This document shows positions 3,457-53,769 of a stretch of DNA of 64,000 bases, in pieces (position 1 is the first letter of the stretch; each line of letters starts with the position of its first letter). The position numbers were made by a program, and so were the translations under genes. This DNA is from an archaeon (GTDB lineage: Archaea; Iainarchaeota; Iainarchaeia; Iainarchaeales; GCA-2688035), in contig JBAZQI010000001.1 of NCBI GenBank assembly GCA_041645325.1, positions 8,945 to 72,944 on the forward strand, read 5' to 3'. The notes beneath the pieces were generated by a model. The model was not told where the DNA came from, made no database searches, and saw nothing but the letters and a program-made list of their open reading frames with translations.

Positions 3457-3496
3457 GAACAGGGCTATTCGGTCACTCTTTTTGCAAAAAAGGCTT

Positions 3497-4265: not shown

Positions 4266-4307
4266 ATATTTGGTTTAAAGCGAAGAACACCCTTTTTCTT
4301 TTTTTTT

Positions 4308-4375
4308 CACTAAAATAGCTTTTAAATACAGGAAAACCCTTTTATATCTAAAATTTCAGGGGAGGTGAAAAGCAA
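4308..4375 (+). promoter_or_regulatory. second copy of conserved promoter/leader block
   Basis: cactaaaatagcttttaaatacaggaaaaccc...ggggaggtgaaaagcaa matches the 3497-3572 block. Confidence 0.55.
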
Positions 4376-4702
4376 ATGGCAATTAAATCAATTACAAGGA
4401 TTGACCCTGTGCAGTACGGGAAAGTGCTGGCAGTGCTATTGGCAATTATATACCTGATTATGGGGCTAGTAATGACCCTGTTTATGGGATTGATTGGCGG
4501 AATCATGGCAATGATTCCAGAGGCTGGTGGCGGATCATTTGCCGGTTTCGGTGTCGGTCTCGGCATAGGCGGCGGCTTGGCAATGACCGTTGCCATGGTT
4601 ATTTTCGGAGCAATCTTTGGCTTCGTAATGGGCGTAATCGGCGCTTTCATCTATAATTTTGTCGCAAGCAAGGTAGGCGGAATAAAAATTGACCTTGAGT
4701 GA
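4376..4702 (+). CDS. small glycine-rich membrane protein
   Basis: 108 aa with two TM segments and a GxGxG-rich loop. Has a strong SD and the duplicated leader; followed by a T12 tract (terminator-like). Confidence 0.45.
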   Translation: MAIKSITRIDPVQYGKVLAVLLAIIYLIMGLVMTLFMGLIGGIMAMIPEAGGGSFAGFGVGLGIGGGLAMTVAMVIFGAIFGFVMGVIGAFIYNFVASKVGGIKIDLE

Positions 4703-4740: not shown

Positions 4741-4856
4741 AGCCTTTTGCCGTGGGCAAAAGCCTTGGGAAAAAGCTTCGCAAAAAAACAGGCAAAGCCA
4801 CCGCACCTGCGAAGCAAACCAATTAAATACATTCCAGCTCAAAATTCATTATTCGT

Positions 4857-5071
4857 GCCGGCGTGGCTGAGCTCGGTTGAAGGTGCTCCGCTCGAAAAGG
4901 CCTTTTTTCCTGCTGGAAAAAAGCCTTGGGAAAACCCAAATTGCTGATGCAATTTGAGGCCTTTTCTTAGAAAGAAAAGCCCTGGGAAAAGAAAGCAATG
5001 CTGATGCATTGCTAAACGCGAGGAACGGAGTAGGTCGAAAGGCCTCACAGGTTCAAATCCTGTCGCCGGCG
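4857..5071 (+). tRNA. tRNA-Ser(CGA), class II, with a ~128-nt intron at 37/38 (4897-5024)
   Basis: Acceptor GCCGGCG/CGCCGGC. D-arm GCT-GAGCTCGGTTGAA-GGT. Anticodon stem CTCCG(4886-90)/CGGAG(5026-30), loop CTCGAA|intron|A. Variable arm GGTC-GAAA-GGCC. T-arm ACAGG-TTCAAAT-CCTGT. Discriminator G. No encoded CCA. Confidence 0.6.
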
Positions 5072-8757: not shown

Positions 8758-9534
8758 TTACCTGGTGTTCATGTTGATGTTCCCAAATCTTCTGTTTCTT
8801 TCATCGATGTTTGATATTGCTGCATTTAGCGCTCTCGTTTTCGCACGGTGTTGAATGTAAGGCTTTAACGAATTAAGCAATTCAACAAGGTAAAATTTTT
8901 TGCTTATTACCAAACTCCAGTAATCTCCATTGTGCACGTATCCTTCGCGGGTAACATATCCTTTCCTTGCACCAAGACACAACTTTCTGCATTTTATCCC
9001 GAATTTTGGAAGTGTTTCAAGTATTTTTTCTAATAATGCTTTGTCATAATTTCCCAAAGCATAAACTGCCTGCCCTTTGGAAATGCCAATGTGCCCCTCT
9101 GCGTCTGTAAATCCCGCTAAAAAGGAGAAGAAAACATCTTCTTTTTGGAAGATCCAATCTGGGGCAACTTTACTTAATAAGAAGCTAAAACTTAAGGGGA
9201 GACCAACTCCGATACTTTTGGCTCCTCGTTTGTTTTTCTTTGAGATCCAAAGTGTAGAATACTTTTGGAACATGCTTTGAATCAGTTGCAGTTGTTCTTC
9301 TTTCGTTGTGCCGCATTCAATTGAGATTGTTTCACTATTTTTACCGCCTGTTCTTGCTCTCAAATCACCTATCCTAAAGCCAATTAGGTAAGCCTTTTCC
9401 AACAAATTGCCGCTAAAATCCTTCCGAGGATAAATCATTTGAGCACCCGCAGGGGTTCTTGTTTTTATCCCGTACTCTATCAATTTCTGTGCACAGTGCT
9501 TCTTGAAAATCCATATAGCTTTTCTATTTCCCAA
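8758..9534 (-). pseudogene. LAGLIDADG homing endonuclease domain (two motifs), 3' part of a frameshifted HTHx4-LAGLIDADG gene
   Basis: LIGFRIGDLRAR and LAGFTDAEGHIGISKG motifs. Its first residues (KKHCAQKLIEYGIKTR) complete the fourth HTH repeat of the upstream ORF in another frame. Confidence 0.7.
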
Positions 9535-10151
9535 CTGGAAAGCCTTTTCTTGCCGTAGAGTTCCAGCAGGGTTTCTTTACTTGGCACATTTTGATTTGGG
9601 CTTCTGGGCAGTCTTGCCTTGATTCCAAACTGCTTAAGCCTTTTCCAGATAGTAGCTTGACAGCAGTTGTATTTCTCAGCTATTTCAAAGGTTGTCAAAC
9701 CCTGTTTTATGTAAAGTTCAATTAGTTCCTTTTTGGTTATTTTTACAAAGCGGCCGTTTGAAGGCTTGGTCTTTATTTTATATTCCCTAAGCCTGTTGAG
9801 AATTGTAGTCATTTTGCAGTCAAACACTTTGGCTATTTCGCTTGGGGCAAGTTTTCTCTTTTCGTATAATTCAATCAAGTCCTCTTTTGGGATTTTTATC
9901 TTCTTTTTCTTTACAAAAAGTTTCACTGCTTCAGCAGTTGTTCTGGGCTTAATGCCATAAAATTTCAGCCAGTAGCAGATTGAGCCGGCGGTTCGGTCAA
10001 AAAGTTTCCCTATTTCTGATGTAGGACGTTTCTGCCTAGTGTACAACTCTTCCAACACTTCTTTCGAAATTTCAGCTTTCACTCTCCCACCGCACAAAAT
10101 ACGGTTTTGCCGTTTAAAATCGCTTTGAAAGAGCAGGTTTCCGCTAATCAC
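9480..10151 (-). pseudogene. four tandem ~45-aa helix-turn-helix repeats, 5' part of the frameshifted homing-endonuclease gene
   Basis: Repeats KE(V/D)L(E/I)ELY..(K/R)....EI.K......TI..RLK.(Y/F)GIK(P/T/A)R appear 4 times. GTG start overlaps the stop of a 34-codon upstream ORF (GTGA). Confidence 0.6.
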
Positions 10152-17336: not shown

Positions 17337-17575
17337 TAAGCCTTTCTTTCTAAAGAAAGAAAGCCTTGGGAAAGAAAGAAGCCTTTTTTGCTTGGGCAAA
17401 AAAGCCTTGGGAAAGAAAGAAGCCTTTTTTGCTTGGGCAAAAAAGCCTTGGGAAAAGAAATTTTCCCTTTTTTTTTCGCCAGCCCCAAGCAAAGCATGGC
17501 TTTGCGGGCCTCGTACCCTGCAGGGCACTCGGTTTTTCCAAAAGGCTGTTGGGAAAAACGCCTTCGGCAAAAGGG
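17337..17575. repeat. array of AAGCCTTGGGAAAG / GCTTGGGCAAAA modules plus palindromes upstream of aIF2-beta
   Basis: (aaagccttgggaaagaaagaagccttttttgcttgggcaaaa) occurs twice plus a partial copy. Palindromes ctttctttctaaagaaagaaag, gcaaagcatggctttgc and ccctgcaggg are also present. Confidence 0.65.
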
Positions 17576-17620: not shown

Positions 17621-18034
17621 ATGAAAATGGATTATGATAAAATGCTTGAGCGGCTTTACGCAGGGCTTCCTGAGAGCACAAAAAAGCATGAGCGTTTTGA
17701 GATGCCGCTTGCGGATTCTTTTGTGCAGGGCAATAAGACCATCATAAAGAATTTTTCGGCAATTCTCAAGGCAATAAACAGGGATGGCAAGCACATGTTC
17801 AAGTTCATTGCAAAGGAAACAGCCACCTCCGCCGCAATTGATGACAACAACAGGCTTGTTTTGAGCGGAAAGTTTGACCATGGGCAGGTTAACGGCCTTA
17901 TAACGAGCTATGTCAACCAGTTTATTCTGTGTCCGGAATGCAAGAGGCCTGACACAAAGGTAATGGAAAAGCAGGGCATCAGGATGCTGAAATGCGAGGC
18001 CTGCGGCGCAATAAGCAGCGTAAAAGGGCTTTGA
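17621..18034 (+). CDS. eif2b: translation initiation factor aIF2 beta subunit
   Basis: C-terminal zinc ribbon CPECKRPDT...CEACGA. The ORF-track extension upstream of 17621 is repeat-encoded and is rejected. Confidence 0.85.
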   Translation: MKMDYDKMLERLYAGLPESTKKHERFEMPLADSFVQGNKTIIKNFSAILKAINRDGKHMFKFIAKETATSAAIDDNNRLVLSGKFDHGQVNGLITSYVNQFILCPECKRPDTKVMEKQGIRMLKCEACGAISSVKGL

Positions 18035-18348
18035 AGTATAAAAGGAGGCTGGTTCAAATCCTTTGCAAGGTTCACGGTTTTGGGCAAAGCGAGGTTCTTG
18101 CCGTTTGCGACAAGGAATTGTGCGGCAAGACCCTGAAAGGGCCTTTGGCTGATTTTGCCGTAAGCAAGTGGTTTTACGGCGGGGAAGGGCTCTCCGAAAA
18201 AGAATTGAGGGCCAGGCTGCGCGAGTTTGAAAACATAAACATTGTGGGAAACAAGGCTGTTTCCATTGCATTAGCCGAAGGCGTTGTTTCCGAAGAAAAC
18301 GTCATTGACCTTTCGGGCGTAAAACATGTGCAAATATTTAAAATCTGA
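17992..18348 (+). CDS. hypothetical protein (C-terminus ...GVKHVQIFKI)
   Basis: 118-codon ORF overlapping the aIF2-beta 3' end. Its last 7 codons plus stop are duplicated downstream of the TA cassette. Confidence 0.4.
   Translation: MRGLRRNKQRKRALKYKRRLVQILCKVHGFGQSEVLAVCDKELCGKTLKGPLADFAVSKWFYGGEGLSEKELRARLREFENINIVGNKAVSIALAEGVVSEENVIDLSGVKHVQIFKI
18325..18344 (+). repeat. direct repeat DR1 (catgtgcaaatatttaaaat), the 3' end of ORF 17992..18348
   Basis: 19 of 20 nt identical to 18948-18967. Both copies encode HVQIFKI followed by a stop. Confidence 0.7.
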
Positions 18349-18441
18349 CTTGCTTTTTTTTTTGGCGCGGTGCATTTTCCGTTGTTTTAAACTGTCGGTT
18401 TTTTATAGTTCTTTTTGCATTTATCCTATTGGTGTTTGCTT

Positions 18442-18630
18442 ATGGCTAACGTGACAATGGAAATGCTTTACAAGGAAATAAAATCGCTTAGGAAAGAGGT
18501 TGAAACAGTGAAAAGCGTTCTTATTTCGGAAGAAAAAGTCAGTGCCAAGGAATTGGCTGCAATCAGGGCAACAGAAAAAGAAATGCTTGCCGGCAAGGAA
18601 AAGCCCTTTAAAGAAATATTTGGCTGCTGA
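18442..18630 (+). CDS. putative antitoxin of RelE/ParE-type TA pair
   Basis: 62 aa, coiled and acidic (MANVTMEMLYKEIKSLRKEVE...). Located 20 nt upstream of the toxin. Confidence 0.45.
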   Translation: MANVTMEMLYKEIKSLRKEVETVKSVLISEEKVSAKELAAIRATEKEMLAGKEKPFKEIFGC

Positions 18631-18649
18631 CAAGCGCTTAATTCTGGCG

Positions 18650-18943
18650 ATGTTGAAAGGCGGTTTTTTCTTGTTTGAAGCAAGGTTCAGCAACAATTCG
18701 GAGAAATTCATCAAAAACTGCGATGAAAAAATAAAGCAGCGCCTAAAACAATTGTTTTTGCGCTTGCAAGATGCGCCTGTTCCCGCAAAAGAATTTGACT
18801 TGAAAAAGATTGGCGGAAAAGACGACACTTACAGGATAAGGCTGTCAAGCTACAGGGTAACCTACACCGTCTTTTGGGAACAAAAAATCATCAGGGTATT
18901 GTTTATTGAAAGAAGGAAAGAAAGCACTTACAAACAGTTGTGA
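18650..18943 (+). CDS. RelE/ParE-family toxin
   Basis: C-terminal YRIRLSSYRVTYTVFWEQKIIRVLFIERRKESTY matches the RelE/ParE signature (R..Y...I.VL.I..RK..Y). Confidence 0.7.
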   Translation: MLKGGFFLFEARFSNNSEKFIKNCDEKIKQRLKQLFLRLQDAPVPAKEFDLKKIGGKDDTYRIRLSSYRVTYTVFWEQKIIRVLFIERRKESTYKQL

Positions 18944-18947
18944 ACAG

Positions 18948-18967
18948 CACGTGCAAATATTTAAAAT
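18948..18967 (+). repeat. direct repeat DR2 (cacgtgcaaatatttaaaat)
   Basis: Duplicate of 18325-18344, located just after the toxin stop. Confidence 0.7.
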
Positions 18968-18999
18968 ATAGTTGAATGTGAATTGGTAAAGGAGTATGC

Positions 19000-19329
19000 A
19001 TGCCGAGCAACAAAAACAGGAAAGACAAGACGAGTTCTGAAAGCATTGGAAAGCTGCGTTTTCCCAACAAGGAAAAGTGCGAGATTTTTGGCGTTGTGTC
19101 AAAGCTCATGGGCGCAAACCAGGTCAAGGCAGTCTGCCAGGACGGCGTTGAAAGGGGCTGCAGGATTCCCGGCAAGCTCAAAAAGCGCGTTTGGGTAAGG
19201 GAAGGCGACCTTGTGATTGTCAAGATTTGGGATTTCCAGCCAAGCAAGGGCGACATAATGTGGCGCTTTTTCGGGAACCAGGTTGAATGGTTCAAAAGAA
19301 AGGGCGTGCTTGAAGGCCTGCCAATCTGA
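19000..19329 (+). CDS. eif1a: translation initiation factor aIF1A
   Basis: S1-like OB fold: ...GVVSKLMGANQVKAVCQDGVERGCRIPGKLKKRVWVREGDLVIV.... Confidence 0.9.
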   Translation: MPSNKNRKDKTSSESIGKLRFPNKEKCEIFGVVSKLMGANQVKAVCQDGVERGCRIPGKLKKRVWVREGDLVIVKIWDFQPSKGDIMWRFFGNQVEWFKRKGVLEGLPI

Positions 19330-19381
19330 TTCTTTTGCTGAAAGAAATGGCTTGCCTGAAGGCCTGCCTTTGTGAAAACAT

Positions 19382-19939
19382 TCAGACATCAACCATTGCA
19401 AGCCTGATTCTTCCATCCATATTCTGGCCAAGGACAATTATGTTATGCTCAAACATCTTCCCGATGGATACCTTGGCACAGCAGTCTTTCAGTTCACCCA
19501 AAGCAGCGCGCAGTTTTTCCAAGGAAATGCCTTTGTTCAATGGATGATTAGTGAAACGCTTGCAAATCAAGGCTTGTTCCCTTTTAAGATAAGAAGAAGG
19601 CAAGCGGGATTTTTTGGCTTCAAGAAAATCAACCAATTCTGCAACTGATGGCTTTTCAAAATATTCTTGAATGCCTGTTTCATATGAGCAGGCTGGTTTC
19701 ACCAAAACAAACAATTTTGGATTGCCAAAATCCCCAAAAGAATGCATAAGCACAGAATAGGCTTCGTTGGCAACACGCAGGTCAAGAGGCCATCTTTTTG
19801 CAATAAGCCTCTTGTGCTGGCCGGTGCCAACAAGCACTTTTTTATCACGATTCACAAGCATTGAACCCGTATTCAGGTTTCGCACAAACGCCCCTGCCCT
19901 CTGCTCAAAATTCTTCAGGCGCCTTTTTCTTCCCCTCAA
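19382..19939 (-). CDS. hypothetical protein (no recognised domain)
   Basis: 185-aa ORF with a basic N-terminus. Lies between aIF1A and a secreted-protein gene. Confidence 0.4.
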   Translation of the reverse strand: MRGRKRRLKNFEQRAGAFVRNLNTGSMLVNRDKKVLVGTGQHKRLIAKRWPLDLRVANEAYSVLMHSFGDFGNPKLFVLVKPACSYETGIQEYFEKPSVAELVDFLEAKKSRLPSSYLKREQALICKRFTNHPLNKGISLEKLRAALGELKDCCAKVSIGKMFEHNIIVLGQNMDGRIRLAMVDV

Positions 19940-20029
19940 GCCAAATCACTATCTAATAGATTGTGCTTTTCTGCTTTAAAGACAATGCAGGAGCACGTTG
20001 CTATTCGTTAGCATTCTGCCGAAGGCACT

Positions 20030-20110
20030 TTTTCCCATGGCTTTTTTGCTCAAACCTTTTAGCAAAAGGTTTACGAAAAATGTTTCGCAAGCAAAAAAGG
20101 CTTTTGCCTA
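20030..20110. repeat. hairpin-module repeat region (AAAGGCTTTT family)
   Basis: aaaccttttagcaaaaggttt, cgaaaaatgtttcg and aaggcttttgcctaagc hairpins. Confidence 0.45.
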
Positions 20111-22146
20111 AGCAAAAAAACCATTATTTAAACATCGGTGTGCATAATTGTTTAGGCGATTTTGTTTTGGATTCCAGCACAAATCTTTTGCTTGGTTTTG
20201 TTGCGGTCATGGTTGCCGCCGTGGCGGTAATCGCATACCCTTATATGGCGCCGATTGATGTGCCGGCTGGCCCTAACTGGCATATCGGCCCTTCCGGCCC
20301 GGAATTCAAGGAGATTCCGCGCTTTCAAAGCTATTCTGATTTGAAGGCAGCTTTTGAGGAAGCGGGGAGCGGCGTGCGCAATGGCATGTGGGAAACAATG
20401 GGCGGCGTTGCAGTGCCAATGGCCGCCAATGCTGATTCTGCAGGCAAAGCCGTTTCGGAAGAACAATCTTCGGATTTTTCCACAACCAATGTGCAGGTGC
20501 AGGGTGTTGATGAGGCTGACATTGTGAAGACTGACGGAAAGTACGTTTACAATTTTGCCGGTGAAGAGCTTGTGATTACCGACGCTTACCCTGTTGAGGG
20601 CTCTAAAATTGTTTCGGAAACAAAGCTTGGCGGATTATCGCCGATAGAAATGTTTGTTTCCGGCGACAGGCTACTGCTTTTTGGGAGCGAATACGTTAAT
20701 TATGGCTGTGAAGACTGTGATGGAATAAAAGGCGTTTCGTCAATTGAGCGAATGCCTTACTTTTGGGGCGGCAGCAGGGCTGTTGTAAGGCTTTATGACA
20801 TTTCCGACAGGGCTTCTCCTGTGCTTGAAAAAGAGCTTGAGTTTGAAGGCAGTTATTTGGCCTCAAGGCTTGTCGGGGAAAATGCTTACTTTGTTGTGAA
20901 CAGCTGGCCGAGCTACAGGGAATGCGATGAAAGCAATGAAGAATGCATGATTCCCCTGATGGCTGATGATGGCGTTGAGAAAAAGGTTGCGGAGGCAACC
21001 GAAATAGGCTACCTTCTGCCGATGCCTGCGCAGAGCTTTGTGACCCTTGCCTCAATGAACCTTGGTTCCGGCGCGCTTGAAAAGGAAACAATTGCCGGAA
21101 GCGCGCAGGGCGTTTTTGCCTCGCAGGAAAACATTTACCTTGAGGCAAGCGTGTGGATTCCGAGGGAAACACTGCTGCCTGAGGGAACGCCCGCCGGCGA
21201 GATTGAAAGGGCTGTTTGGGGTGACACCGAGGAAACAGTTGTGAACAAGTTTGGCCTTGCCGAAGGCAAGATTGGTTACATTGGGCAGGGCAGGGTTCCA
21301 GGCCGCGTCCTGAACCAGTTTTCAATGGACGAATTTGAGGGAAATTTCAGGATTGCCACAACCATCGGGTGGAATGGCTCAAATTGCCTGTATGTTTTGA
21401 ACAAGGAAATGGAAACAATCGGAAAGCTTGAAGACCTTGCGCCAGGCGAAAGCATTTACAGCGCGCGCTTCATGGGCCCAAAGGCTTACCTTGTAACCTT
21501 CAAAAAGGTTGACCCGTTGTTTGTCATTGACCTGTCAAACCCTGTGGAACCAAAGGTCTTGGGCAAGCTCAAGATTCCCGGTTACTCCGATTATTTGCAT
21601 CCAATAGATGAAACGCACATAATCGGAATAGGCAAGGAAACAATTGAGTCGGCAAAAGGCGACTTTGCATGGTACCAGGGCATGAAGATGGCTATCTTTG
21701 ACGTGAGCGATGTTGAGCACCCTGTGGAAATGCACAAGATTGTCATCGGGGACAGGGGCACTGACAGCTATGCATTGCAGGACCACAAGGCTTTCTTGTA
21801 CGACAAGGAAAAAGAGTTGCTTGTTTTGCCCATAATGCTTGCTGAGATTCCGGAAAGCGACAAAAAGCCCTTGGATGAGGGCCAGTCATGGCCTGCTTAC
21901 GGAGAATACGTTTTCCAGGGCGCTTTTGTTTTCAAGGTGAACCTTGAAGAGGGCTTTGTGCTCAGGGGCAGGATAACCCACATAACCCCTGAAGAAGAGC
22001 TCAAGAGGGGCTATTACTTTGGCGACGATTACAGCGTGAAAAGGGCGCTGTACATAGGCAATGTCTTGTACACGCTGAGCGGAAAAATGCTGAAGGCGAA
22101 TGACCTGGGCACTTTGGAAGAACTGAAGGAATTCAGCTTCGAATGA
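20080..22146 (+). CDS. secreted/cell-surface beta-propeller protein (COG4880-like), N-terminal signal anchor
   Basis: Charged N-terminus followed by a TM segment (LLLGFVAVMVAAVAVIA). Repeated motifs of the VDEADIVKTDGKYVY / DGK.YL type suggest beta-propeller blades. The start is placed at ATG 20080; the ORF-track start at 19963 runs into repeat DNA. Confidence 0.55.
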   Translation: MFRKQKRLLPKQKNHYLNIGVHNCLGDFVLDSSTNLLLGFVAVMVAAVAVIAYPYMAPIDVPAGPNWHIGPSGPEFKEIPRFQSYSDLKAAFEEAGSGVRNGMWETMGGVAVPMAANADSAGKAVSEEQSSDFSTTNVQVQGVDEADIVKTDGKYVYNFAGEELVITDAYPVEGSKIVSETKLGGLSPIEMFVSGDRLLLFGSEYVNYGCEDCDGIKGVSSIERMPYFWGGSRAVVRLYDISDRASPVLEKELEFEGSYLASRLVGENAYFVVNSWPSYRECDESNEECMIPLMADDGVEKKVAEATEIGYLLPMPAQSFVTLASMNLGSGALEKETIAGSAQGVFASQENIYLEASVWIPRETLLPEGTPAGEIERAVWGDTEETVVNKFGLAEGKIGYIGQGRVPGRVLNQFSMDEFEGNFRIATTIGWNGSNCLYVLNKEMETIGKLEDLAPGESIYSARFMGPKAYLVTFKKVDPLFVIDLSNPVEPKVLGKLKIPGYSDYLHPIDETHIIGIGKETIESAKGDFAWYQGMKMAIFDVSDVEHPVEMHKIVIGDRGTDSYALQDHKAFLYDKEKELLVLPIMLAEIPESDKKPLDEGQSWPAYGEYVFQGAFVFKVNLEEGFVLRGRITHITPEEELKRGYYFGDDYSVKRALYIGNVLYTLSGKMLKANDLGTLEELKEFSFE

Positions 22147-24806: not shown

Positions 24807-25079
24807 ATGTCCACTACAATTAGTTTTGTTGCAGAGCCTTCTTTTTCAAAGGCAATTGATGCCGTTGTTTCTAAAACCGGGCTTTACCAAAGCAAGAGCG
24901 AGTTTGTGAGGGATGCAGTTAGGGAAAAGCTTGAGCGGGTTGTGTCATTGCAAAGCGATTTGGCTGCGGTTAGGGCTTCAGGGAAAAGGCTGTTGCAAAA
25001 ATCTGTTTTTAAGGGAAATCTTTCTGCGGTGGAAAGGGATGCTTTGGCTAAAGCGTATCTAAAATCTCGCCGGGCGTGA
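24807..25079 (+). CDS. ribbon-helix-helix (CopG/Arc-like) DNA-binding protein
   Basis: SKSEFVRDAVREKLER RHH helix. Confidence 0.5.
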   Translation: MSTTISFVAEPSFSKAIDAVVSKTGLYQSKSEFVRDAVREKLERVVSLQSDLAAVRASGKRLLQKSVFKGNLSAVERDALAKAYLKSRRA

Positions 25080-25103
25080 AGCACGGCATAAATTTCTGCG
25101 TTT

Positions 25104-25571
25104 TCACAAAATCTTTTTTGCTTCTGCAGGGTGTGACCATAATTTTTCTTGCATTATTTTCCGGATTGCCTGCAGGAAGCCTTTCGCTATTTTGATTGTT
25201 GTGTCCGCATCTGACTCTTGGATTTCGCTGTTCCTTTCCAAGCCATACATGAGGTCGTGTCTCTGCAATCGAAGGGCATTGAGTTCGCTTAGGTATTTTC
25301 TTTCAATTTTGCCGCCGTATTTTTCGTTGATGTAAACATAAACTGCAAAGTGGCTTCTTTCCTTAAAGCCGTCCTTGAACAGCAGCGCTCTTGCTGAATG
25401 AAACATGGATGCGTAAGCGCTGATGATTGCGCTTTCAAACAGGTTGTGTTCGAATTCGGCTTCGGCAAGATCCAGCTTGTGCTCAGCCATTTCAATTGAA
25501 GATTTTGCTTTTTCCGGGTCGGGTTTCGATTTTGCCAGCAGGCCTTGTTCCAGGCATTGTTCAGTGTTCAT
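25104..25571 (-). CDS. HEPN-domain protein (toxin component of HEPN/MNT pair)
   Basis: Rx4HxY motif (RLQRHDLMYG). Its start overlaps the MNT stop. Confidence 0.75.
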   Translation of the reverse strand: MNTEQCLEQGLLAKSKPDPEKAKSSIEMAEHKLDLAEAEFEHNLFESAIISAYASMFHSARALLFKDGFKERSHFAVYVYINEKYGGKIERKYLSELNALRLQRHDLMYGLERNSEIQESDADTTIKIAKGFLQAIRKIMQEKLWSHPAEAKKIL

Positions 25572-26116
25572 GTAACCACGGGCTTTTCCCCAAACAAAAC
25601 AATGGAGTCATAAATGACATTTTCATAAAATACTTTGTCCTCAACAGCTTTCTTTTTCCAATCTGACAGCGAGAAGAGCGAAAAATTGGTTTCTTTGCCG
25701 AGTTTGTTTGTAAAACCAAAGTCGGTTTTGGCTTTTTGGCTGGAAATGACAAGCAGGTCAATGTCGCTTTTTTCGTCATTTGTCCCCTTTGCAAAGCTGC
25801 CATACAGCAGAATAGAAATAGGGTGCTGCATTTTTTTCACGGTTTGCTCCACAATTCTGGAATCTGCAATTTTGTCCAGGTTAAAGAGAATCTTCCACTG
25901 CCTGCACAAAGGGTTTTCCAAGTCAGCCCGGTATTGGTAAGTCTTGCCAATGATTTTCAGGCAAGCAATGCCTTTATTGCGCATGTAATCTAATGCGGTT
26001 CTTGTGGCTCCTGGGCTGAGGCACGTTTCCCTTGCCAGCCCCCTGACGGAAAAGCTTTTCATGGGCTCGGAAGTCAAAACGCGAATTGCCTTTATCAGAG
26101 CATATTTTTCCAGCAT
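25568..26116 (-). CDS. minimal nucleotidyltransferase (MNT) with N-terminal wHTH
   Basis: ILLYGSFAKGTNDEKSDIDLLVIS (GSx9-13DxD). The ORF-track start at 26182 is probably too long; Met23 sits about 25 nt downstream of a TATATTTAAATATA box. Confidence 0.7.
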   Translation of the reverse strand: MLEKYALIKAIRVLTSEPMKSFSVRGLARETCLSPGATRTALDYMRNKGIACLKIIGKTYQYRADLENPLCRQWKILFNLDKIADSRIVEQTVKKMQHPISILLYGSFAKGTNDEKSDIDLLVISSQKAKTDFGFTNKLGKETNFSLFSLSDWKKKAVEDKVFYENVIYDSIVLFGEKPVVT

Positions 26117-26467
26117 AACAATACAAAATACAATTGTATATTTAAATATAACGATGGGTTCATAGTTTACAATATAAAACAAGGGCTTTGTTGTTATGGG
26201 CGCTGCCGTGAATATTCCTTTGGAACGCGAATATTGGTATTCACGATTTTTTTCTTCGGTCTTTGCCGGAACGCCTTTCGGTTATTCCATAAATAGCGTC
26301 TTCAGGATGTGGGCTGGTAATTGCATATTCAAAACCTATATCCCGTACTCTTCTGTCCTTTCCTGTTCTTCTATCAAGCGGGTTTTTTACGCTTCTTCTG
26401 TCGATTGGCTTGATTGGCTTTAACGGCATTTAATTATCGCCATTAACCTTTTTGTTTTCCCTTCTTT

Positions 26468-32789: not shown

Positions 32790-32965
32790 TTTGCGAAGCA
32801 TTTTTCCCAAGGCTTCCGAGTACCCTGCGGGGTACGAGGCAAGAAAAGCTGTTGCTTTTCTATGTTTTGCTGTTGCAAAAAAGGCTTTGCGCGAAGCGCA
32901 TTTTTCCCAAGGCTTTTTTGCTGTTGCAAAAAAGGCTTTTTGATGAAACTTTTTTTCAAAAGTTT
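32790..32965. repeat. inverted-orientation copies of TTTTCCCAAGGCTT repeat with hairpins
   Basis: gcatttttcccaaggcttccgagtaccctgcggggtacgagg ... gcgcgaagcgcatttttcccaaggcttttttgctgttgcaaaaaaggc. Confidence 0.6.
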
Positions 32966-39439: not shown

Positions 39440-39541
39440 TTCTTCTTATGGGAAAAAAAACTTTGGAAAAAACCCGTGTTCAATGTCACGAGTTCACTTC
39501 GTTCGCATTTTTAACCTTTTCTTGAAACTATTTTTCATTAA

Positions 39542-39613
39542 GGGCCCTTGGTCTAGTGGTATGATGCTCGGTTGGCAATCGGGAGGTCGCGGGTTCAATT
39601 CCCGCAGGGTCCA
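39542..39613 (+). tRNA. tRNA-Ala(GGC)
   Basis: Acceptor GGGCCCT/AGGGTCC with the G3:U70 alanine identity pair. Anticodon loop TTGGCAA. T-arm GCGGG-TTCAATT-CCCGC. Discriminator A. Confidence 0.85.
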
Positions 39614-39639
39614 AAACCCATTGAGCCCAAGCGAAATGG

Positions 39640-39732
39640 GTTCTCCTGTGGCAGTTGTAATTTTCCAAAGGCTTTTGTGCAACAGCCTTTAACAAAGGCT
39701 GGCGAAAAATGCTTCGCGAGCACAAAAGGCTT
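39640..39732. repeat. AAGGCTTTT-family hairpin modules inside the insert downstream of tRNA-Ala
   Basis: ttccaaaggcttttgtgcaacagcctttaacaaaggctggcgaaaaatgcttcgcgagcacaaaaggctttt. Confidence 0.55.
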
Positions 39733-39754
39733 TTCAATTCCCGCAGGGTCCAAA
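39733..39754 (+). repeat. 22-bp duplicate of the tRNA-Ala 3' end (ttcaattcccgcagggtccaaa)
   Basis: Identical to 39594-39615. Lies 117 bp downstream of the tRNA. Confidence 0.75.
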
Positions 39755-39932: not shown

Positions 39933-41597
39933 ATGGTTTCCAAAAAGGAGCTTCTTTTGAAGAGCATCCGCGAACTGCTCGCCTTGAACGTTTCCGACAA
40001 GGAAATAGCGATGAACCTCAAAGAGGTTGGCATTGACGAGGCCAATGCAAAAGCCCTTATTCTTGAGGCAAGGCAGCCAGAGGCGCCTGCGCAGGCCCAG
40101 GAGCCTGAGGCAAAGTCTGTTCCTTTCTTTGGCGGCTTTGGGCTGAAAAAAGAGGGCAAAAGCGTTTCGCCTGAAGAAGAGGCAAAAGAGGTTGTGGCTG
40201 AAAGGGAGCAGGCGACTGAAGACCTTGCTGCCGAATCCGTTGAGGGTGAAGAAGAGCCTGAAGGAGGGTCGGAAGAGATTGCGGAAGGCCTTGGCTTTTG
40301 GGACAAATCCGGGGAAAAAAAGCCGGCTAAGGGCAAGGCGGAAAAGAAAGCGCCTTTTGCCTCCGTTGAAACGCCGCCGCTTGGGATTTTTAAAAAAAAT
40401 TCCCTTGATTCGGAGGACGGGGCGGATGAAGCAGGCGAGGATGCCCCTGCAAGAAAAGAAAAGCCAAGCCTTGTCGAGGACATCCTGGTGAGCAAGCTTT
40501 GGGAGAAAGGAATTTTTGCAACCGTAAACCAGAAGCTTGCTGAAATGGAAGACCTCAGAAGGGACCTTGATGCTGTGCTTGACAAAAAGGTTGCGGATGC
40601 AAGCAAAAGGGAAATGGAAAAAATAAAGGTTTTGTTTGACAGCCAGCGCGCGCTTTTGGTGAGCAAGGTTGATTCCGAGCTTGAGGCAAAGGCAAAGGGC
40701 TTTGCGGAAATGATTGAGATGAAGCTCAGGGAAATGCGGGGCATAAACAAGCAGATTGCCTCCCAGATTGAAACAGTGAAGGAAATGGAGCGCGGCTCAA
40801 AGGTCAGTGCCGATGCCATTTCACAAAGGCTGGAGGAAGCCGACAAGCTCAAGGAACGCATTCTCTCCTCGCTGAACGGCGAGCTCATAAACACCAGGAG
40901 CGAAAGCAGGTCCCTTGTGGAGGAAATGGGCAAAAAGCTCGGTGACATGGATGAAAGGATAAACAAGACGCTGCAGCTTGAAAACCAGATTGTTGAAGGG
41001 CTTGTCAAGGAAGCCGAGCGCAGGGTTGTAGCCCTGCTTGAGGAAAAGTCCGCAGAGTTTTCAGCCGAAACCAAGAGTAGAATCGAGGATATTGGAAAAC
41101 TCAAGGATTCCTTCAAAGCGGCCCAAAAAGCCGAGTTTGCAGAGACCGAAGAGGGCATTGCCGCAAAGCTTTCCTTGTTTGAGGAAATGATTGGCAAAAA
41201 CGGCCGGGCCCAGAAGGCCGAGCTTGCAAAGGCGGAAGAGGGCATTGCCGCAAAGCTTTCCTTGTTTGAGGAAAGGGCTGACAAAAAGCTTGAGGCGCTG
41301 GACAAGCTGCAAAAGCAGATTTCCCTGGATTTCAAGCCTGAAAAATTCAGGCAGACAATGCAGGAGCTCAACGAGTTCAAGGCCCAGTTCGTTGACGCAA
41401 TAAAGCAGAACGCCGAAAGCTTCAACGAGGGAATAAAGAATCTGAACCAGCAAAGCCAGGTGATTGAAAGGCAGTTCATGTTACGTGCGGAAAAAATAGA
41501 CAAAAAGATTGCGGAACTCGATGCCTTTGAAAAAAGTTTCGCAAAAGAAATGGGCCTTGCAATAGAAAAAATCCCGAAAAAGGGCAGCGGGAAATAG
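39933..41597 (+). CDS. long coiled-coil protein with acidic N-terminal region and internal 29-aa tandem repeat
   Basis: 554 aa with predicted heptad-rich sequence. A 40-bp perfect DNA direct repeat at 41148-41187 and 41235-41274 encodes EEGIAAKLSLFEE. Confidence 0.55.
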   Translation: MVSKKELLLKSIRELLALNVSDKEIAMNLKEVGIDEANAKALILEARQPEAPAQAQEPEAKSVPFFGGFGLKKEGKSVSPEEEAKEVVAEREQATEDLAAESVEGEEEPEGGSEEIAEGLGFWDKSGEKKPAKGKAEKKAPFASVETPPLGIFKKNSLDSEDGADEAGEDAPARKEKPSLVEDILVSKLWEKGIFATVNQKLAEMEDLRRDLDAVLDKKVADASKREMEKIKVLFDSQRALLVSKVDSELEAKAKGFAEMIEMKLREMRGINKQIASQIETVKEMERGSKVSADAISQRLEEADKLKERILSSLNGELINTRSESRSLVEEMGKKLGDMDERINKTLQLENQIVEGLVKEAERRVVALLEEKSAEFSAETKSRIEDIGKLKDSFKAAQKAEFAETEEGIAAKLSLFEEMIGKNGRAQKAELAKAEEGIAAKLSLFEERADKKLEALDKLQKQISLDFKPEKFRQTMQELNEFKAQFVDAIKQNAESFNEGIKNLNQQSQVIERQFMLRAEKIDKKIAELDAFEKSFAKEMGLAIEKIPKKGSGK

Positions 41598-52881: not shown

Positions 52882-53208
52882 TCACTCCAGCTGCTTCAGC
52901 CTTACAAAACAGTTTTCGCAGATGAATTTTTCGTTGAAGTCAATGCCGTTCATGCCGCCTGTGCCGCAAAGGATGCAGATTTTTCCGTGCTGTGGCAGTG
53001 AAAAGTTTTCCGCCCAGGCCCTCAAAAGCTCCCATGAAACCCACTTTGGCATGAACAATTCGCGAAAAACGCTTTTGTCGTTCTTTTGAATGCGCTCAAA
53101 CTGGCTTGGCATGACTTTCCTGTGGAGGCCTTTCAGGAAATTCACCTTTTCCAAATCGCCTTTTCTCATCAAATCATTTACCGTCTGTTCAAAAAATTCA
53201 TTTGCCAT
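52882..53208 (-). CDS. hypothetical protein with C-terminal zinc ribbon
   Basis: CILCGTGG...CENCF. Confidence 0.45.
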   Translation of the reverse strand: MANEFFEQTVNDLMRKGDLEKVNFLKGLHRKVMPSQFERIQKNDKSVFRELFMPKWVSWELLRAWAENFSLPQHGKICILCGTGGMNGIDFNEKFICENCFVRLKQLE

Positions 53209-53235
53209 AAAACCACTTCATTCCCATTTTATCAC

Positions 53236-53276
53236 TTCAGGTAAATAACCTTTTTTCCATTCTTAATCTTTGCCCT
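53236..53276 (+). repeat. 41-bp direct repeat DR1, a duplicate of the 3' end (last 14 codons + stop) of gene 53353..53769
   Basis: ttcaggtaaataaccttttttccattcttaatctttgccct versus 53357-53397 tttaggtaaatgactttttttccattcttaatctttgccct. Both reverse complements encode RAKIKNGKKVIYLK followed by a stop. Confidence 0.75.
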
Positions 53277-53350
53277 AGCCGTCACGTCCGGCTGGTACGG
53301 GCACAACCTCGCTTGGGCTCGGTTGAGCCGGCTCGCTGCTGCTCGCACTT
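53277..53350 (+). repeat. family-2 repeat copy C, bracketed by the 41-bp direct repeats
   Basis: agccgtcacgtccggctggtacggg...ggctcggttgagcc...ggctcgctgctgctcgca. Confidence 0.6.
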
Positions 53351-53352
53351 AA

Positions 53353-53769
53353 TCATTTTAGGTAAATGACTTTTTTTCCATTCTTAATCTTTGCCCTTTT
53401 TGCGTATTTTTCCAGGTAGTGCACCGTGCTCTTTGAAATGCCTGTAACGCGCTCCACTTCGCGCAGGCTCTGGTAGTCCTTTCTCATTTCAAGCGCCTGC
53501 TGCATTTTCTCCAAAGGCATTGAAATCGGCCTTCCCGGCCTTGCCACTGTTTCCAAAACAACGCCTTTTTGCCAGAGCAATGCAACGCTTTTCTTCGGCA
53601 TTCTTGCAATGCAGCTTTTGCTTGCGCTCGCAGTTTCAAGCATTGCGCATTTTTTCAGGATTCCTTCAAGCAATTCCTTTTTTACCGGCCTGACAAAATG
53701 CAGTTTTGCCGCTTCCTTCGGAATATCCCTGGCGTCCATTCCCGGCAAAACAGAAAAAATCATGCACAA
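53353..53769 (-). CDS. HTH DNA-binding protein (resolvase/sigma-70 region 4-like HTH at C-terminus)
   Basis: SLREVERVTGISKSTVHYLEKY helix-turn-helix. Confidence 0.5.
   Translation of the reverse strand: MCMIFSVLPGMDARDIPKEAAKLHFVRPVKKELLEGILKKCAMLETASASKSCIARMPKKSVALLWQKGVVLETVARPGRPISMPLEKMQQALEMRKDYQSLREVERVTGISKSTVHYLEKYAKRAKIKNGKKVIYLK

What the first reader, a model, noticed from the sequence alone, without database searches (positions are those of the whole stretch)
18325..18967. RelE-type toxin-antitoxin cassette bracketed by 20-bp direct repeats that recreate the C-terminus of the upstream gene
The last codons plus stop of ORF 17992..18348 (catgtgcaaatatttaaaat, HVQIFKI-stop) recur, 19 of 20 nt identical, immediately after the toxin stop at 18948-18967. 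Read in frame, the second copy also encodes HVQIFKI-stop. The roughly 600-bp antitoxin+toxin unit therefore looks like a discrete insertion into the 3' end of a host gene that duplicated (or carried a copy of) the target end. This is integrase-att-like behaviour for a payload far smaller than a classical integrative element. The same 3'-end duplication logic recurs at two other loci in this window (tRNA-Ala and the gene at 53353). This suggests an uncharacterised small-cargo insertion mechanism targeting gene 3' termini.
Basis: seen in the sequence. Interest (0 to 1): 0.8.

Follow-up and report, generated by a model that had tools for sequence, protein, structure and literature searches.

The report
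Toxin-antitoxin cassette in a gene-end insertion hotspot
A self-contained 0.6-kb toxin-antitoxin cassette with no recombinase of its own sits between two translation genes of a DPANN archaeon, bracketed by two copies of the upstream gene's last codons, and related genomes show that this junction is a recurrent landing pad for small swappable gene modules.

Summary
The 20-mer CAYGTGCAAATATTTAAAAT occurs only twice in the window (18325-18344 and 18948-18967). Both copies read HVQIFKI-stop, the near-invariant C-terminus of DUF424 proteins.

Between the copies lies a 599-nt unit with its own TATA-like element, a 62-aa antitoxin-like gene and an aRelE-type toxin.

Nine related Iainarchaeota-like loci show the predicted empty site. 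They have one tail copy, then 14-22 nt, then the aIF1A start codon.

At least eight other fillings occupy the same junction:
- VapBC, and a decayed VapC;
- a sugar-isomerase-like gene;
- a radical-SAM gene;
- ORFs of unknown function.

Some fillings form arrays separated by further tail copies. Two modules are more similar between lineages than their flanking translation genes, which indicates horizontal transfer.

The same RelE cassette family also sits at tRNA-Met 3' ends, bounded by copies of that tRNA end.

In the window, 4 of 69 gene or tRNA 3' ends carry a nearby downstream duplicate. None of 177 interior control segments does.

Best reading: att-type (Campbell-type) recombination of small cassettes without a recombinase, each carrying its own copy of the target tail. 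Both copies are then kept, one as the DUF424 C-terminus and one as the probable aIF1A promoter. The enzyme is unidentified. I rate this a new variant of a known kind.

The parts
17621..18034 (+). aIF2-beta gene, upstream member of the conserved aIF2beta-DUF424-aIF1A block
   Evidence: PF01873 eIF-5_eIF-2B, 2.9e-36. The same gene order is seen in all related loci.
17992..18348 (+). DUF424 gene, the host gene whose 3' end is repeated. The true start is uncertain.
   Evidence: PF04242, 3.5e-21, residues 33-118 matching profile positions 7-92 of 92. The C-terminus KHVQIFKI is invariant or nearly so in 29 homologs.
18325..18348 (+). Repeat copy 1 (attL-like): 20-nt core 18325-18344 plus CTGA. It provides the functional last 7 codons and the stop codon of DUF424.
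   Evidence: The ending AAAATCTGAC is shared with sister locus L021, which carries a different cargo.
18354..18363 (+). Run of 10 T just after the DUF424 stop. Probably an archaeal oligo-T terminator that insulates the cassette (inference).
   Evidence: Sequence. Similar T-runs follow the tail in L019 and L021.
18396..18410 (+). The cassette's own TATA-like element (TTTTTTATAG), 32-43 nt upstream of the antitoxin ATG
   Evidence: Conserved in cassette copies from different genomic contexts (alignment A2). The position is typical for genes in this window. Promoter function is inferred.
18442..18630 (+). Antitoxin-like gene, 62 aa
   Evidence: It sits upstream of and on the same strand as the toxin, 19 nt apart. 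A comparable small ORF (56-63 aa) precedes homologous toxins in all other contexts. dN/dS is about 0.16-0.24. No Pfam, NCBIfam or PDB match.
18650..18943 (+). RelE/ParE-superfamily toxin, archaeal RelE type (97 aa from the ATG; 90 aa if it starts at TTG 18671)
   Evidence: PF05016, 8.1e-8, 33.2 bits against a cut-off of 23. PDB 1WMI_A (PHS013), 6.6e-9, and E. coli RelE. dN/dS is 0.07-0.15.
18948..18971 (+). Repeat copy 2 (attR-like): the displaced native DUF424 tail. It is identical to the tail of empty-site relatives. It contains the 15-mer ATATTTAAAATATAG (18957-18971), inferred to be the TATA/promoter element of aIF1A.
   Evidence: The 15-mer plus an 18-28 nt spacer is retained upstream of aIF1A in most filled loci while the part 5' of it decays. 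It is degenerate in L021 and L022. Synonymous-site identity is elevated in the tail, 0.68 versus 0.47.
19000..19329 (+). aIF1A gene, downstream member of the junction
   Evidence: PF01176, 8.9e-22; TIGR00523, 2.2e-34.
19295..19375 (+). Second example: the aIF1A tail is duplicated in tandem (19295-19329 and 19341-19375, 83% identity). The second copy reads RNGLPEGLPL-stop.
   Evidence: The duplication is shared with L022. Sister strain L016 has one hybrid copy, which is a deletion between the repeats.
19382..19939 (-). 185-aa ORF of unknown function. Together with palindromic repeats up to about 20100, it is inserted between aIF1A and the beta-propeller gene.
   Evidence: Absent from this position in L005, L008, L021 and L023, where aIF1A is followed by the beta-propeller promoter region. 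No Pfam hit.
39594..39754 (+). Third example: the tRNA-Ala 3' end (39594-39615) is repeated exactly at 39733-39754. The 117 nt between the copies belong to a family of palindromic repeats.
53222..53397 (-). Fourth example: the tail of gene 53353..53769 is duplicated, with a 66-nt spacer of 70% GC between the copies. The lower copy ends 23 nt upstream of the ATG of the next gene (52882..53208).
   Evidence: Within the 14 shared codons there are four differences, all synonymous third positions.

Best explanation
SHOWN
- The 599-nt segment 18349-18947 is a self-contained type II toxin-antitoxin cassette. It has its own TATA-like element, a 62-aa antitoxin-like gene and an aRelE-type toxin.
- It was inserted exactly at the junction between DUF424 and aIF1A.
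- In related genomes that junction is only 14-22 nt long.
- Many different small modules occupy the same junction in related lineages.
- Modules move horizontally between diverged lineages.
- Arrays of modules are separated by further copies of the tail.
- Deletion between repeat copies occurs.

INFERRED
- The last codons of DUF424 (ATATTTAAAATATAG) also serve as the TATA/promoter element of aIF1A.
- The cassette arrived as a small circular DNA, or an equivalent recombination partner, that carried its own copy of the DUF424 tail.
- A single crossover within the 20 shared bases (att x att, Campbell-type) produced two junctions. The upstream one is host tail plus the cassette-borne CTGA. The downstream one is the cassette end TGAACAG plus the core plus the native ATAG and spacer.
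- The upstream copy keeps the DUF424 C-terminus. The downstream copy keeps aIF1A expression. Neither can be lost.
- The cassette encodes no recombinase, so the reaction is catalysed in trans. The catalyst is either a site-specific recombinase encoded elsewhere or the host's short-homology recombination.
- Recombination between two tail copies can excise a module as a circle carrying one copy. This would explain the spread to the same ultra-conserved site in diverged lineages, the module arrays and the secondary empty sites.
- The toxin-antitoxin pair probably stabilises its own retention, wedged between essential genes.
For: 1. Empty sites. L005, L010-L015, L017 and L023 have one tail, then 14-22 nt, then the aIF1A ATG. 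The native tail CACGTGCAAATATTTAAAATATAG is identical to the window's second copy.

2. A sister pair. L008 and L023 are 94-96% identical in the flanking genes and differ by a 341-nt insertion or deletion bounded by the 15-mer.

3. A hotspot with diverse cargo:
- RelE pair: window, L001-L004 and L016.
- VapBC: L019 and L021.
- VapC remnant: L022.
- 183-aa ORF: L006 and L024-L026.
- Broken ORFs homologous to L027's AP_endonuc_2 gene: L007.
- 116-aa ORF: L009.
- TA-like pair plus a 183-aa ORF: L020.
- AP_endonuc_2 gene + RelE pair + radical-SAM gene: L027.
. Filled and empty sites are interleaved on a tree of aIF2beta plus aIF1A.

4. Modules are younger than their flanks.
- VapBC between L019 and L021: dN 0.09, dS 0.7-0.8. 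Flanking aIF1A: dN 0.17, dS 1.07. Flanking DUF424: dN 0.27, dS 1.2.
- The AP_endonuc_2 module between L007 and L027 is about 83-88% identical in nucleotides. Their aIF1A genes are 75% identical, dS 1.9.

5. Arrays. L027 has tail-like copies at 59-73, 1436-1462 (4 nt after the toxin stop, ending AAAATCTGA) and 2538-2552.

6. The same cassette family at tRNA-Met.
- In L031 it is flanked by a 17-nt repeat that overlaps the tRNA 3' end.
- In L029 and L030, four copies of the tRNA-Met 3' end separate single-gene modules.

7. The cassette carried its own tail copy.
- In the ancestor of the window and L016 the core was 20/20 identical, followed by an abrupt CTGA versus ATAG.
- All differences between the copies are synonymous, both here and at 53222/53343.

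8. Specificity to 3' ends. 4 of 69 gene or tRNA 3' ends have a copy matching at 18/20 or better within 1.5 kb downstream. None of 177 interior controls does.

9. Deletion between repeats is seen directly, comparing L016 with the window at the aIF1A tail.

10. The cassette is under purifying selection.
Against: - No recombinase was identified. None fits in the cassette. None was called in the modules at this site or at tRNA-Met. None was found among 20 window ORFs scanned. The rest of the genome is unavailable.
- No circular junction or attP on a free element was observed. A search of IMG/VR for the 17-mer core gave only unrelated phage contexts, and the toxin has no viral relatives.
- The repeat is not always present. 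In L065 a related RelE cassette lies between Nop5 and fibrillarin with no visible tail duplication.
- Five loci (L007, L008, L019, L020, L027) share the same degenerate junction CGT[CT]ATATTTAAA. This could mean one ancient duplication with later cargo turnover and deletions, rather than repeated att-type insertions.
- The promoter role of the 15-mer is inferred only. The short spacers also contain Shine-Dalgarno-like GGAG/GAGG motifs, which are compatible with co-transcription from upstream.
Confidence: 0.6

Rival explanations
1. The cassette is the decayed remnant of a larger, classical integrative element (virus, plasmid or island) that had its own integrase and targeted the DUF424 3' end. 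Genome streamlining deleted everything except the addictive toxin-antitoxin pair and the two att copies.
For: - attL/attR-like repeats and empty sites fit classical integration.
- Degenerate elements and partial att copies left in islands are documented for tycheposons.
- Decay does happen at this site: L022 keeps only the C-terminal third of VapC, and L007 holds a broken AP_endonuc_2 gene.
Against: - The boundaries are very tight and they recur. There are 4 nt between the toxin stop and the repeat in both the window and L027, 14-23 nt at tRNA-Met, and 17 nt for VapBC in L019.
- Independent deletions would not repeatedly trim to exactly one promoter-plus-gene module.
- No integrase fragment was seen in any of about 12 different fillings, nor in the four-module tRNA-Met array.
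- Whole single modules, and not larger elements, are what is shared between diverged lineages.
Confidence: 0.2
2. There is no dedicated mechanism. The junction was duplicated in situ (by slippage or tandem duplication), or DNA was inserted non-specifically. Selection then let only those events survive that kept both the DUF424 C-terminus and the aIF1A promoter. Cargo turnover follows by ordinary homologous recombination through the conserved flanks.
For: - Tandem duplication of a gene tail without cargo exists at aIF1A (19295-19375), and a deletion between its copies is seen in L016.
- The degenerate junction CGT[CT]ATATTTAAA shared by five dispersed loci suggests a single old duplication.
- The dual constraint on the tail explains retention of both copies.
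Against: - A site that needs a duplication to be tolerated should be a poor insertion site. Yet about half of the sampled lineages are filled, with many different cargos.
- The window's downstream copy is pristine: 24/24 identical to the native tail. The upstream copy switches abruptly to CTGA after the 20-nt core.
- The same arrangement, including arrays, occurs at tRNA 3' ends, where no promoter or coding overlap argument applies.
- Modules are more similar between lineages than the adjacent flanks. There is no visible tract of elevated identity extending into the flanking genes.
Confidence: 0.12
3. The cassette is a miniature transposon or casposon-like element inserted by a staggered cut, and the repeat is a target-site duplication.
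For: - The shortest clean repeat, in L008, is 15 nt. This equals the 15-bp duplication made by the A. boonei casposase at a tRNA-Pro 3' end (PMC5137440).
- An IS200/IS605-type Y1 transposase gene lies 1.9 kb from a related cassette in L065.
Against: - No terminal inverted repeats are seen at the ends of the insert (ends read).
- The repeat length varies: 15, 17, 20, 22 and 55 nt.
- The copies differ in a way that fits two diverged functional tails, not a fill-in copy.
- There is no Cas1 or transposase in any module.
Confidence: 0.04
4. The two 20-mers are a chance match or a general promoter/terminator consensus, and the cassette is ancestral.
For: The core is AT-rich and TATA-like.
Against: - There are only 2 matches in the window at up to 3 mismatches, against 0.03 expected.
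- At up to 2 mismatches, the 15-mer occurs in about 230 kb of window plus loci almost only at DUF424 tails and just upstream of aIF1A.
- Empty sites exist.
Confidence: 0.01

Closest known systems
Integrase-mediated integrative elements that target the 3' end of tRNA or protein genes and carry a surrogate 3' end. This includes tandem accretion and degenerate remnants, for example the tycheposons of Prochlorococcus (bioRxiv 10.1101/2020.12.28.424599).
   Same: - Direct repeats equal to the target's 3' end flank the insert.
- The gene end is restored and the native end is displaced.
- Empty sites exist in relatives.
- Several modules can lie in tandem, separated by partial target copies.
- Remnants decay.
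- The setting is a streamlined genome.
   Different: - The units are 0.3-0.9 kb, single-gene or toxin-antitoxin modules.
- No integrase, excisionase or replication gene is present in any of about a dozen fillings.
- The target here is a protein-gene tail that overlaps the next gene's presumed promoter, inside a translation-factor gene block of a DPANN archaeon.
Integron gene cassettes, including the integrons reported in Archaea (PMC9668308)
   Same: - Small, mostly single-gene mobile cassettes without their own recombinase.
- They are arranged in arrays and moved in trans.
- Toxin-antitoxin cassettes are common cargo (my own knowledge).
   Different: - There is no attC-like imperfect inverted repeat after the ORF; only 4 nt separate the toxin stop from the repeat.
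- The separators are direct copies of the host target.
- No intI/attI/Pc platform was seen.
- The cassettes carry their own promoter.
Casposons and mini-casposons (PMC5137440)
   Same: - Archaeal elements with a strong preference for a site at a tRNA 3' end.
- They make a 15-bp direct duplication that overlaps the gene end.
   Different: They require terminal inverted repeats and a Cas1 casposase. Neither is present here, and the repeat lengths here are variable.
IMEX elements that exploit the host Xer recombinases at dif
   Same: Integrating DNA without an integrase uses a host recombinase in trans and ends up flanked by a functional copy and a pseudo-copy of the site.
   Different: IMEX elements use one chromosomal site (dif). 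Here several unrelated targets are used: the DUF424 tail, the aIF1A tail, tRNA-Ala, tRNA-Met and one other gene tail.
Archaeal RelBE, aRelE-aRelB of Pyrococcus horikoshii (PDB 1WMI)
   Same: The toxin is the best sequence match in the PDB (6.6e-9). A small antitoxin gene lies directly upstream.
   Different: The antitoxin has no detectable sequence similarity to any solved or curated family. Activity is untested.

Membership tests
Type II toxin-antitoxin module, RelE/ParE superfamily | Toxin belongs to the RelE/ParE family | tested here: met
   PF05016, 33.2 bits (cut-off 23), E 8.1e-8. PDB 1WMI_A 6.6e-9, plus E. coli RelE and M. jannaschii RelE3. Homologs are named RelE/ParE by their sources.
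Type II toxin-antitoxin module, RelE/ParE superfamily | Small antitoxin gene immediately upstream on the same strand, co-inherited with the toxin | tested here: met
   18442..18630 lies 19 nt before the toxin ATG. A 56-63-aa ORF precedes the toxin homologs in L027, L029, L031, L065 and L067.
Type II toxin-antitoxin module, RelE/ParE superfamily | Antitoxin belongs to a recognised antitoxin family or DNA-binding fold | tested here: inconclusive
   No Pfam, NCBIfam or PDB sequence match. The structure was not predicted.
Type II toxin-antitoxin module, RelE/ParE superfamily | Toxicity, and its neutralisation by the antitoxin | not testable with these tools
   Only indirect evidence: intact ORFs in five independent assemblies and dN/dS of 0.07-0.24.
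Site-specific integrative element (attL/attR at a gene 3' end) | Insert flanked by direct repeats that match the target's 3' end | tested here: met
   The same holds at tRNA-Met in L029 and L031.
Site-specific integrative element (attL/attR at a gene 3' end) | Unoccupied target (attB) with a single copy in related genomes | tested here: met
   L005, L010-L015, L017 and L023.
Site-specific integrative element (attL/attR at a gene 3' end) | Element-encoded tyrosine or serine recombinase | tested here: not met
   The 599-nt unit holds only the two toxin-antitoxin genes. No recombinase domain was seen in any filling of this site or in the tRNA-Met arrays. None was found among 20 window ORFs.
Site-specific integrative element (attL/attR at a gene 3' end) | Excised circular form carrying attP | not testable with these tools
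   Only an attP-like junction inside the L027 array: TGAACA, then a core-like sequence, then CTGA. No free element was found in IMG/VR.
Integron gene cassette | attC recombination site (imperfect inverted repeats) downstream of the cassette ORF | tested here: not met
   Only 4 nt lie between the toxin stop and the direct repeat. No inverted repeat pairs the cassette ends.
Integron gene cassette | Adjacent intI integrase gene with attI and the Pc promoter | tested here: not met
   The flanks are aIF2beta, DUF424 and aIF1A. No integrase appears in the loci.
Casposon / DNA transposon / MITE | Terminal inverted repeats inside a target-site duplication of fixed length | tested here: not met
   No terminal inverted repeats. 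Repeat lengths are 15, 17, 20, 22 and 55 nt.
Casposon / DNA transposon / MITE | Cas1 casposase or a transposase in the autonomous partner | not tested
   None is present in the fetched loci, except a Y1_Tnp gene 1.9 kb from the cassette in L065. The full genomes were not available.

The most novel reading that the evidence does not exclude
DPANN (Iainarchaeota-like) archaea may have an integron-like cassette economy that has no attC sites and no cassette-borne recombinase.
- Single-gene and toxin-antitoxin modules, each carrying a copy of a host gene's 3' end, would excise as circles.
- They would re-insert, in trans, into ultra-conserved gene or tRNA 3' ends.
- Such sites are conserved even at synonymous positions because they also serve as the next gene's promoter.
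- Repeated insertion would build arrays inside essential operons.
- The catalyst could be a dedicated, still unidentified recombinase, or the host's short-homology recombination.
Probability: 0.3. Interest if true: 0.8.

Novelty: new variant of a known kind. Interest (0 to 1): 0.6.

Why it matters
- DPANN archaea have tiny genomes, and little is known about how they acquire genes. Here there is a well-defined, recurrent landing pad, and a second one at tRNA-Met, where small modules are gained, swapped between diverged lineages, stacked and lost. Most of these modules are toxin-antitoxin or of unknown function.
- The site gives a concrete, testable model of gene flux in streamlined archaea. The predicted junction sequences for empty and circular forms can be searched for directly in the public read sets that contain this organism.
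- It also shows how an insertion can be tolerated inside a compact translation-factor gene block: the few bases that serve two genes at once are duplicated.
- If no dedicated recombinase exists, conserved dual-function sequences would act as natural att sites for short-homology recombination.

Tried and rejected
1. attP on a virus or plasmid. An exact search for GTGCAAATATTTAAAAT in IMG/VR gave 32 hits, all in unrelated phage contexts with no archaeal genes nearby. The toxin has no relatives in viral contigs.

2. Recombinase in the window. Pfam scans of 20 candidate ORFs found none. They did find a LAGLIDADG-like ORF, an HTH protein, ScpA, NYN, a HEPN/MNT pair and others. About 60 further ORFs were judged only from their first 40 residues, so this check is incomplete.

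3. Terminal inverted repeats or an attC-like structure at the cassette ends. None found.

4. Known RNA families. Rfam at gathering thresholds finds only the two tRNAs in the window.

5. Generality of tail duplication for this cassette family. It is absent at the Nop5|fibrillarin junction of L065. L028 was too short to judge. L067 was not examined for repeats.

6. General promoter consensus. Rejected. TATA-like hexamers upstream of window genes lie mostly between -45 and -22 from the start codon. This is compatible with, but does not prove, a promoter role for the 15-mer.

7. Homing-endonuclease-driven insertion. Considered because of the LAGLIDADG-like ORF, but no cassette encodes one and the targets are heterogeneous, so it was not pursued.

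8. Literature. No paper was found that describes this junction or small cassettes of this kind in DPANN archaea. Absence from the held library is not proof of novelty.
Full report
OBSERVATION

The 20-mer CAYGTGCAAATATTTAAAAT is present at 18325-18344 and 18948-18967, 19/20 identical. At up to three mismatches these are the only two occurrences in the 64-kb window. Shuffles expect 0.03.

In frame, both copies encode HVQIFKI followed by a stop: CAT GTG CAA ATA TTT AAA ATC TGA and CAC GTG CAA ATA TTT AAA ATA TAG. The first copy is the end of ORF 17992..18348. The second starts 4 nt after the toxin stop and ends 32 nt before the aIF1A ATG.

GENES

- aIF2-beta: 17621..18034 (PF01873, 2.9e-36).
- DUF424 protein: 17992..18348 (PF04242, 3.5e-21, matched to the last profile position).
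- A 62-aa ORF with no family match: 18442..18630.
- RelE/ParE toxin: 18650..18943 (PF05016, 8.1e-8).
- aIF1A: 19000..19329 (PF01176, 8.9e-22; TIGR00523, 2.2e-34).

The toxin's best solved relative is Pyrococcus horikoshii PHS013 (1WMI_A, 6.6e-9), followed by E. coli RelE. The small upstream ORF has no PDB or Pfam match. Even so, a comparable small ORF accompanies the toxin homologs in every other context found.

Between strains, the pair evolves under purifying selection, with dN/dS of 0.07-0.24. Upstream of the antitoxin gene there is a TATA-like element at 18396-18410. It is conserved among cassette copies from different contexts.

The source names of homologs point to a DPANN archaeon of the Iainarchaeota/Diapherotrites group.

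WHAT THE REPEAT IS

KHVQIFKI is the invariant or nearly invariant C-terminus of DUF424 proteins (29 sequences). So the downstream copy is a displaced gene end and not a random motif.

I fetched loci encoding DUF424 relatives from genomes and metagenomes and mapped the five window proteins onto them. The ancestral order is aIF2beta-DUF424-aIF1A. Nine loci have only 14-22 nt between the DUF424 stop and the aIF1A ATG: L005, L010-L015, L017 and L023.

In several of them the tail is CACGTGCAAATATTTAAAATATAG. That is identical over 24 nt to the window's second copy, and it is followed by a similar short spacer.

A HOTSPOT

The same junction is filled with different DNA in other lineages:

| Loci | Filling |
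|---|---|
| L019, L021 | VapB-like gene plus a PIN-domain VapC (PF01850, 4.2e-14) |
| L022 | Only the C-terminal 66 codons of that VapC |
| L006, L024-L026 | A 183-aa ORF on the opposite strand |
| L007 | Broken ORFs that are 83-88% identical to L027's AP_endonuc_2 gene (L007's own fragments have no Pfam hit) |
| L008 | 341 nt |
| L009 | A 116-aa ORF |
| L020 | A TA-like pair plus a 183-aa ORF |
| L018 | Other genes |
| L027 | AP_endonuc_2 gene + the RelE pair + a radical-SAM gene |

On a tree of aIF2beta plus aIF1A, filled and empty sites are interleaved. L008 and L023 are 94-96% identical in the flanking genes. They differ by a clean 341-nt insertion or deletion bounded by ATATTTAAAATATAG.

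MODULES MOVE HORIZONTALLY

- The VapBC module of L019 and L021 has dN 0.09 and dS 0.7-0.8. The adjacent aIF1A has dN 0.17 and dS 1.07. DUF424 has dN 0.27 and dS 1.2.
- The homology starts just after the DUF424 stop and ends about 10 nt after the VapC stop.
- The AP_endonuc_2 module of L007 and L027 is about 83-88% identical in nucleotides. Their aIF1A genes are 75% identical, with dS 1.9.

A toxin-antitoxin pair that is more conserved than a translation initiation factor is best explained by more recent common ancestry, that is, transfer into the same site.

ARRAYS AND OTHER TARGETS

L027 carries three tail-like copies that separate its modules. One of them, ACGGTGCAAATATTATTAAAATCTGA, lies 4 nt after the toxin stop, in the same position as in the window.

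Relatives of the toxin (72-73% identity) sit next to tRNA-Met:
- In L031 the cassette is flanked by CAGTGGCATTAAAAATA and CATTGGCATTAAAAGTA. The first overlaps the tRNA 3' end.
- In L029 and L030, four copies of the tRNA-Met 3' end separate a 139-aa ORF, a methyltransferase gene, the RelE pair and a 55-aa ORF.

Other relatives lie between Nop5 and fibrillarin (L065, together with a HEPN/MNT pair) and next to HicAB (L067). In L065 I found no duplication of the Nop5 tail. The repeat is therefore frequent but not universal.

THE SAME LOGIC WITHIN THE WINDOW

A systematic scan found a copy matching at 18/20 or better within 1.5 kb downstream for 4 of 69 gene or tRNA 3' ends. None of 177 interior control segments reached that level; their maximum was 17/20. 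The four cases are:

1. The DUF424 tail.
2. tRNA-Ala: 39594-39615 and 39733-39754, 22/22 identical, with 117 nt of palindromic repeat between the copies.
3. The tail of gene 53353..53769. Its two copies both encode RAKIKNGKKVIYLK-stop and differ within those codons only at four synonymous third positions. The lower copy ends 23 nt before the next gene's ATG.
4. The aIF1A tail: 19295-19329 and 19341-19375.

For the aIF1A tail, the sister strain L016 has a single hybrid copy. So a deletion between the repeats happened recently.

WHY BOTH COPIES PERSIST (INFERENCE)

In most filled loci, the copy next to aIF1A keeps ATATTTAAAA[T/C]ATAG plus an 18-28 nt spacer, while the part 5' of it decays. Examples are CGTCATATTT... 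in L008, L019, L020 and L027, and CGTTATATTT... in L007. In L021 and L022 the copy is degenerate or unclear.

At up to 2 mismatches, this 15-mer occurs in about 230 kb of window plus loci almost only at DUF424 tails and just upstream of aIF1A. It is therefore not a general consensus.

Its TATA-like core lies 33-40 nt before the ATG. That is within the range where TATA-like hexamers lie upstream of other genes in the window. Synonymous sites in the last eight DUF424 codons are more conserved than elsewhere in the gene, 0.68 versus 0.47.

I infer that the DUF424 tail doubles as the aIF1A promoter. An insertion is then viable only if the tail exists twice. The Shine-Dalgarno-like motifs in the spacers leave co-transcription from upstream as an additional possibility. 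No transcript data were available.

MECHANISM

In the common ancestor of the window and L016 the two copies were 20/20 identical. They were followed abruptly by CTGA in the upstream copy and ATAG in the downstream copy. AAAATCTGAC is also the left junction of the VapBC module in sister locus L021.

All differences between the copies are synonymous or stop-to-stop, both here and at 53222/53343. This pattern fits two functional tails that diverged in different lineages and were then joined. It fits a fill-in duplication that later drifted much less well.

I therefore favour recombination between the chromosomal tail and a tail copy carried by the incoming DNA (att x att, Campbell-type). Circles would be generated by recombination between neighbouring tail copies.

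The cassette has no room for a recombinase. None was seen in any module or among 20 window ORFs. Catalysis must therefore be in trans. The data do not tell whether it is a site-specific recombinase or short-homology recombination. Confidence in this mechanism is about 0.6. Confidence that the cassette is a discrete insertion into a hotspot is above 0.9.

RIVALS

- A decayed remnant of a larger element that carried an integrase (0.2). The tight, recurrent module boundaries and the lack of any integrase fragment argue against it.
- In situ duplication plus selection and flank-mediated exchange (0.12). The tandem aIF1A tail and the shared degenerate junction give it some support.
- A transposon or casposon-like target-site duplication (0.04). 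There are no terminal inverted repeats and the repeat lengths vary.
- Chance or a general consensus (0.01). This is refuted.

COMPARISON WITH KNOWN SYSTEMS

The anatomy works like integrative elements that target gene 3' ends, and like the tandem islands of partial tRNA copies described for tycheposons. Functionally it resembles integron cassette arrays.

It fails defining features of each:
- No element-borne integrase.
- No attC site and no intI platform.
- No terminal inverted repeats and no Cas1.

I found no description of this junction or of such small cassettes in DPANN archaea in the held literature. I rate it a new variant of a known kind, with interest 0.6.

Noticed in passing
window 19295-19375; L016 1420-1470; L022 1340-1430: The aIF1A 3' end is duplicated in tandem: two 35-nt copies at 83% identity, 11 nt apart, with the second reading RNGLPEGLPL-stop. 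L022 has the same duplication. Sister strain L016 has a single hybrid copy, which is a recent deletion between the repeats.
   Followed up: partly
window 19382-20100: A 185-aa ORF on the minus strand (no Pfam hit) plus palindromic repeats is inserted between aIF1A and the beta-propeller gene. In L005, L008, L021 and L023, aIF1A is followed directly by the beta-propeller promoter region.
   Followed up: partly
window 2579-2606, 4745-4933, 17338-17460, 20031-20124, 32865-32939, 36474-36496, 39434-39474, 39655-39677, 45323-45430; L016 58-165: A family of short palindromic intergenic repeats (AAGCCTTTTTTGC...GCAAAAAAGGCTTGGGAAA), resembling REP or MITE elements. It varies between strains: L016 has two copies between aIF2beta and DUF424 that the window lacks. 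A member lies between the two tRNA-Ala 3'-end copies.
   Followed up: partly
window 53277-53342: The 66-nt spacer between the two copies of the gene-53353 tail has 70% GC in a window of 45.5% GC, and it contains inverted repeats (CCGGCT...AGCCGG). Its origin is unknown and Rfam finds nothing there.
   Followed up: partly
L029 836-3100 (also L030): An array at tRNA-Met. Four copies of the tRNA 3' end (889-908, 1463-1482, about 2205 and about 2797) separate a 139-aa ORF, a methyltransferase gene, a RelE toxin-antitoxin pair and a 55-aa ORF, upstream of a DUF116 gene.
   Followed up: partly
L065 1439-3273: Two toxin-antitoxin cassettes (HepT/MNT on the minus strand and a RelE pair) plus an 81-aa ORF are wedged between the Nop5 and fibrillarin genes. 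No duplication of the Nop5 tail is visible. A Y1_Tnp (IS200/IS605-type) gene lies 1.9 kb downstream.
   Followed up: partly
window 17992-18060: The start of the DUF424 gene is unclear. The only canonical start codon (ATG 17992) overlaps aIF2beta by 43 nt. In L016 a repeat insertion separates the two genes. An AGGAGG motif at 18043-18048 suggests a non-canonical start near 18049-18060.
   Followed up: no
window 8758-10151 (minus strand): A LAGLIDADG-like ORF (PF14528, 9.3e-8) lies next to a multi-HTH protein that has a UPF0175-like region. This may be a free-standing homing endonuclease or a remnant of one.
   Followed up: no
window 24807-26182: A further toxin-antitoxin-type locus: HEPN (25104..25571) and a nucleotidyltransferase (25568..26182) with overlapping genes on the minus strand, next to an RHH/ParD-like ORF (24807..25079).
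   Followed up: no
window 2757-2789, 3494-3572, 4298-4376: A 79-nt upstream region with TATA-like and GGAGGTG motifs is repeated (77% identity) in front of three consecutive small membrane-protein-like genes. This suggests a tandem paralog family that shares a promoter.
   Followed up: no
window 41120-41287: An 81-nt tandem repeat (88% identity, 87-nt period) inside the 554-aa ORF 39933..41597. That ORF has no Pfam match and lies directly downstream of the tRNA-Ala duplication.
   Followed up: no
L005, L006, L009, L011 record titles: Several contigs that carry this archaeal aIF2beta-DUF424-aIF1A block are binned in MAGs labelled Chloroflexi, Falkowbacteria or Thaumarchaeota. This is probably contamination of the bins.
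   Followed up: no
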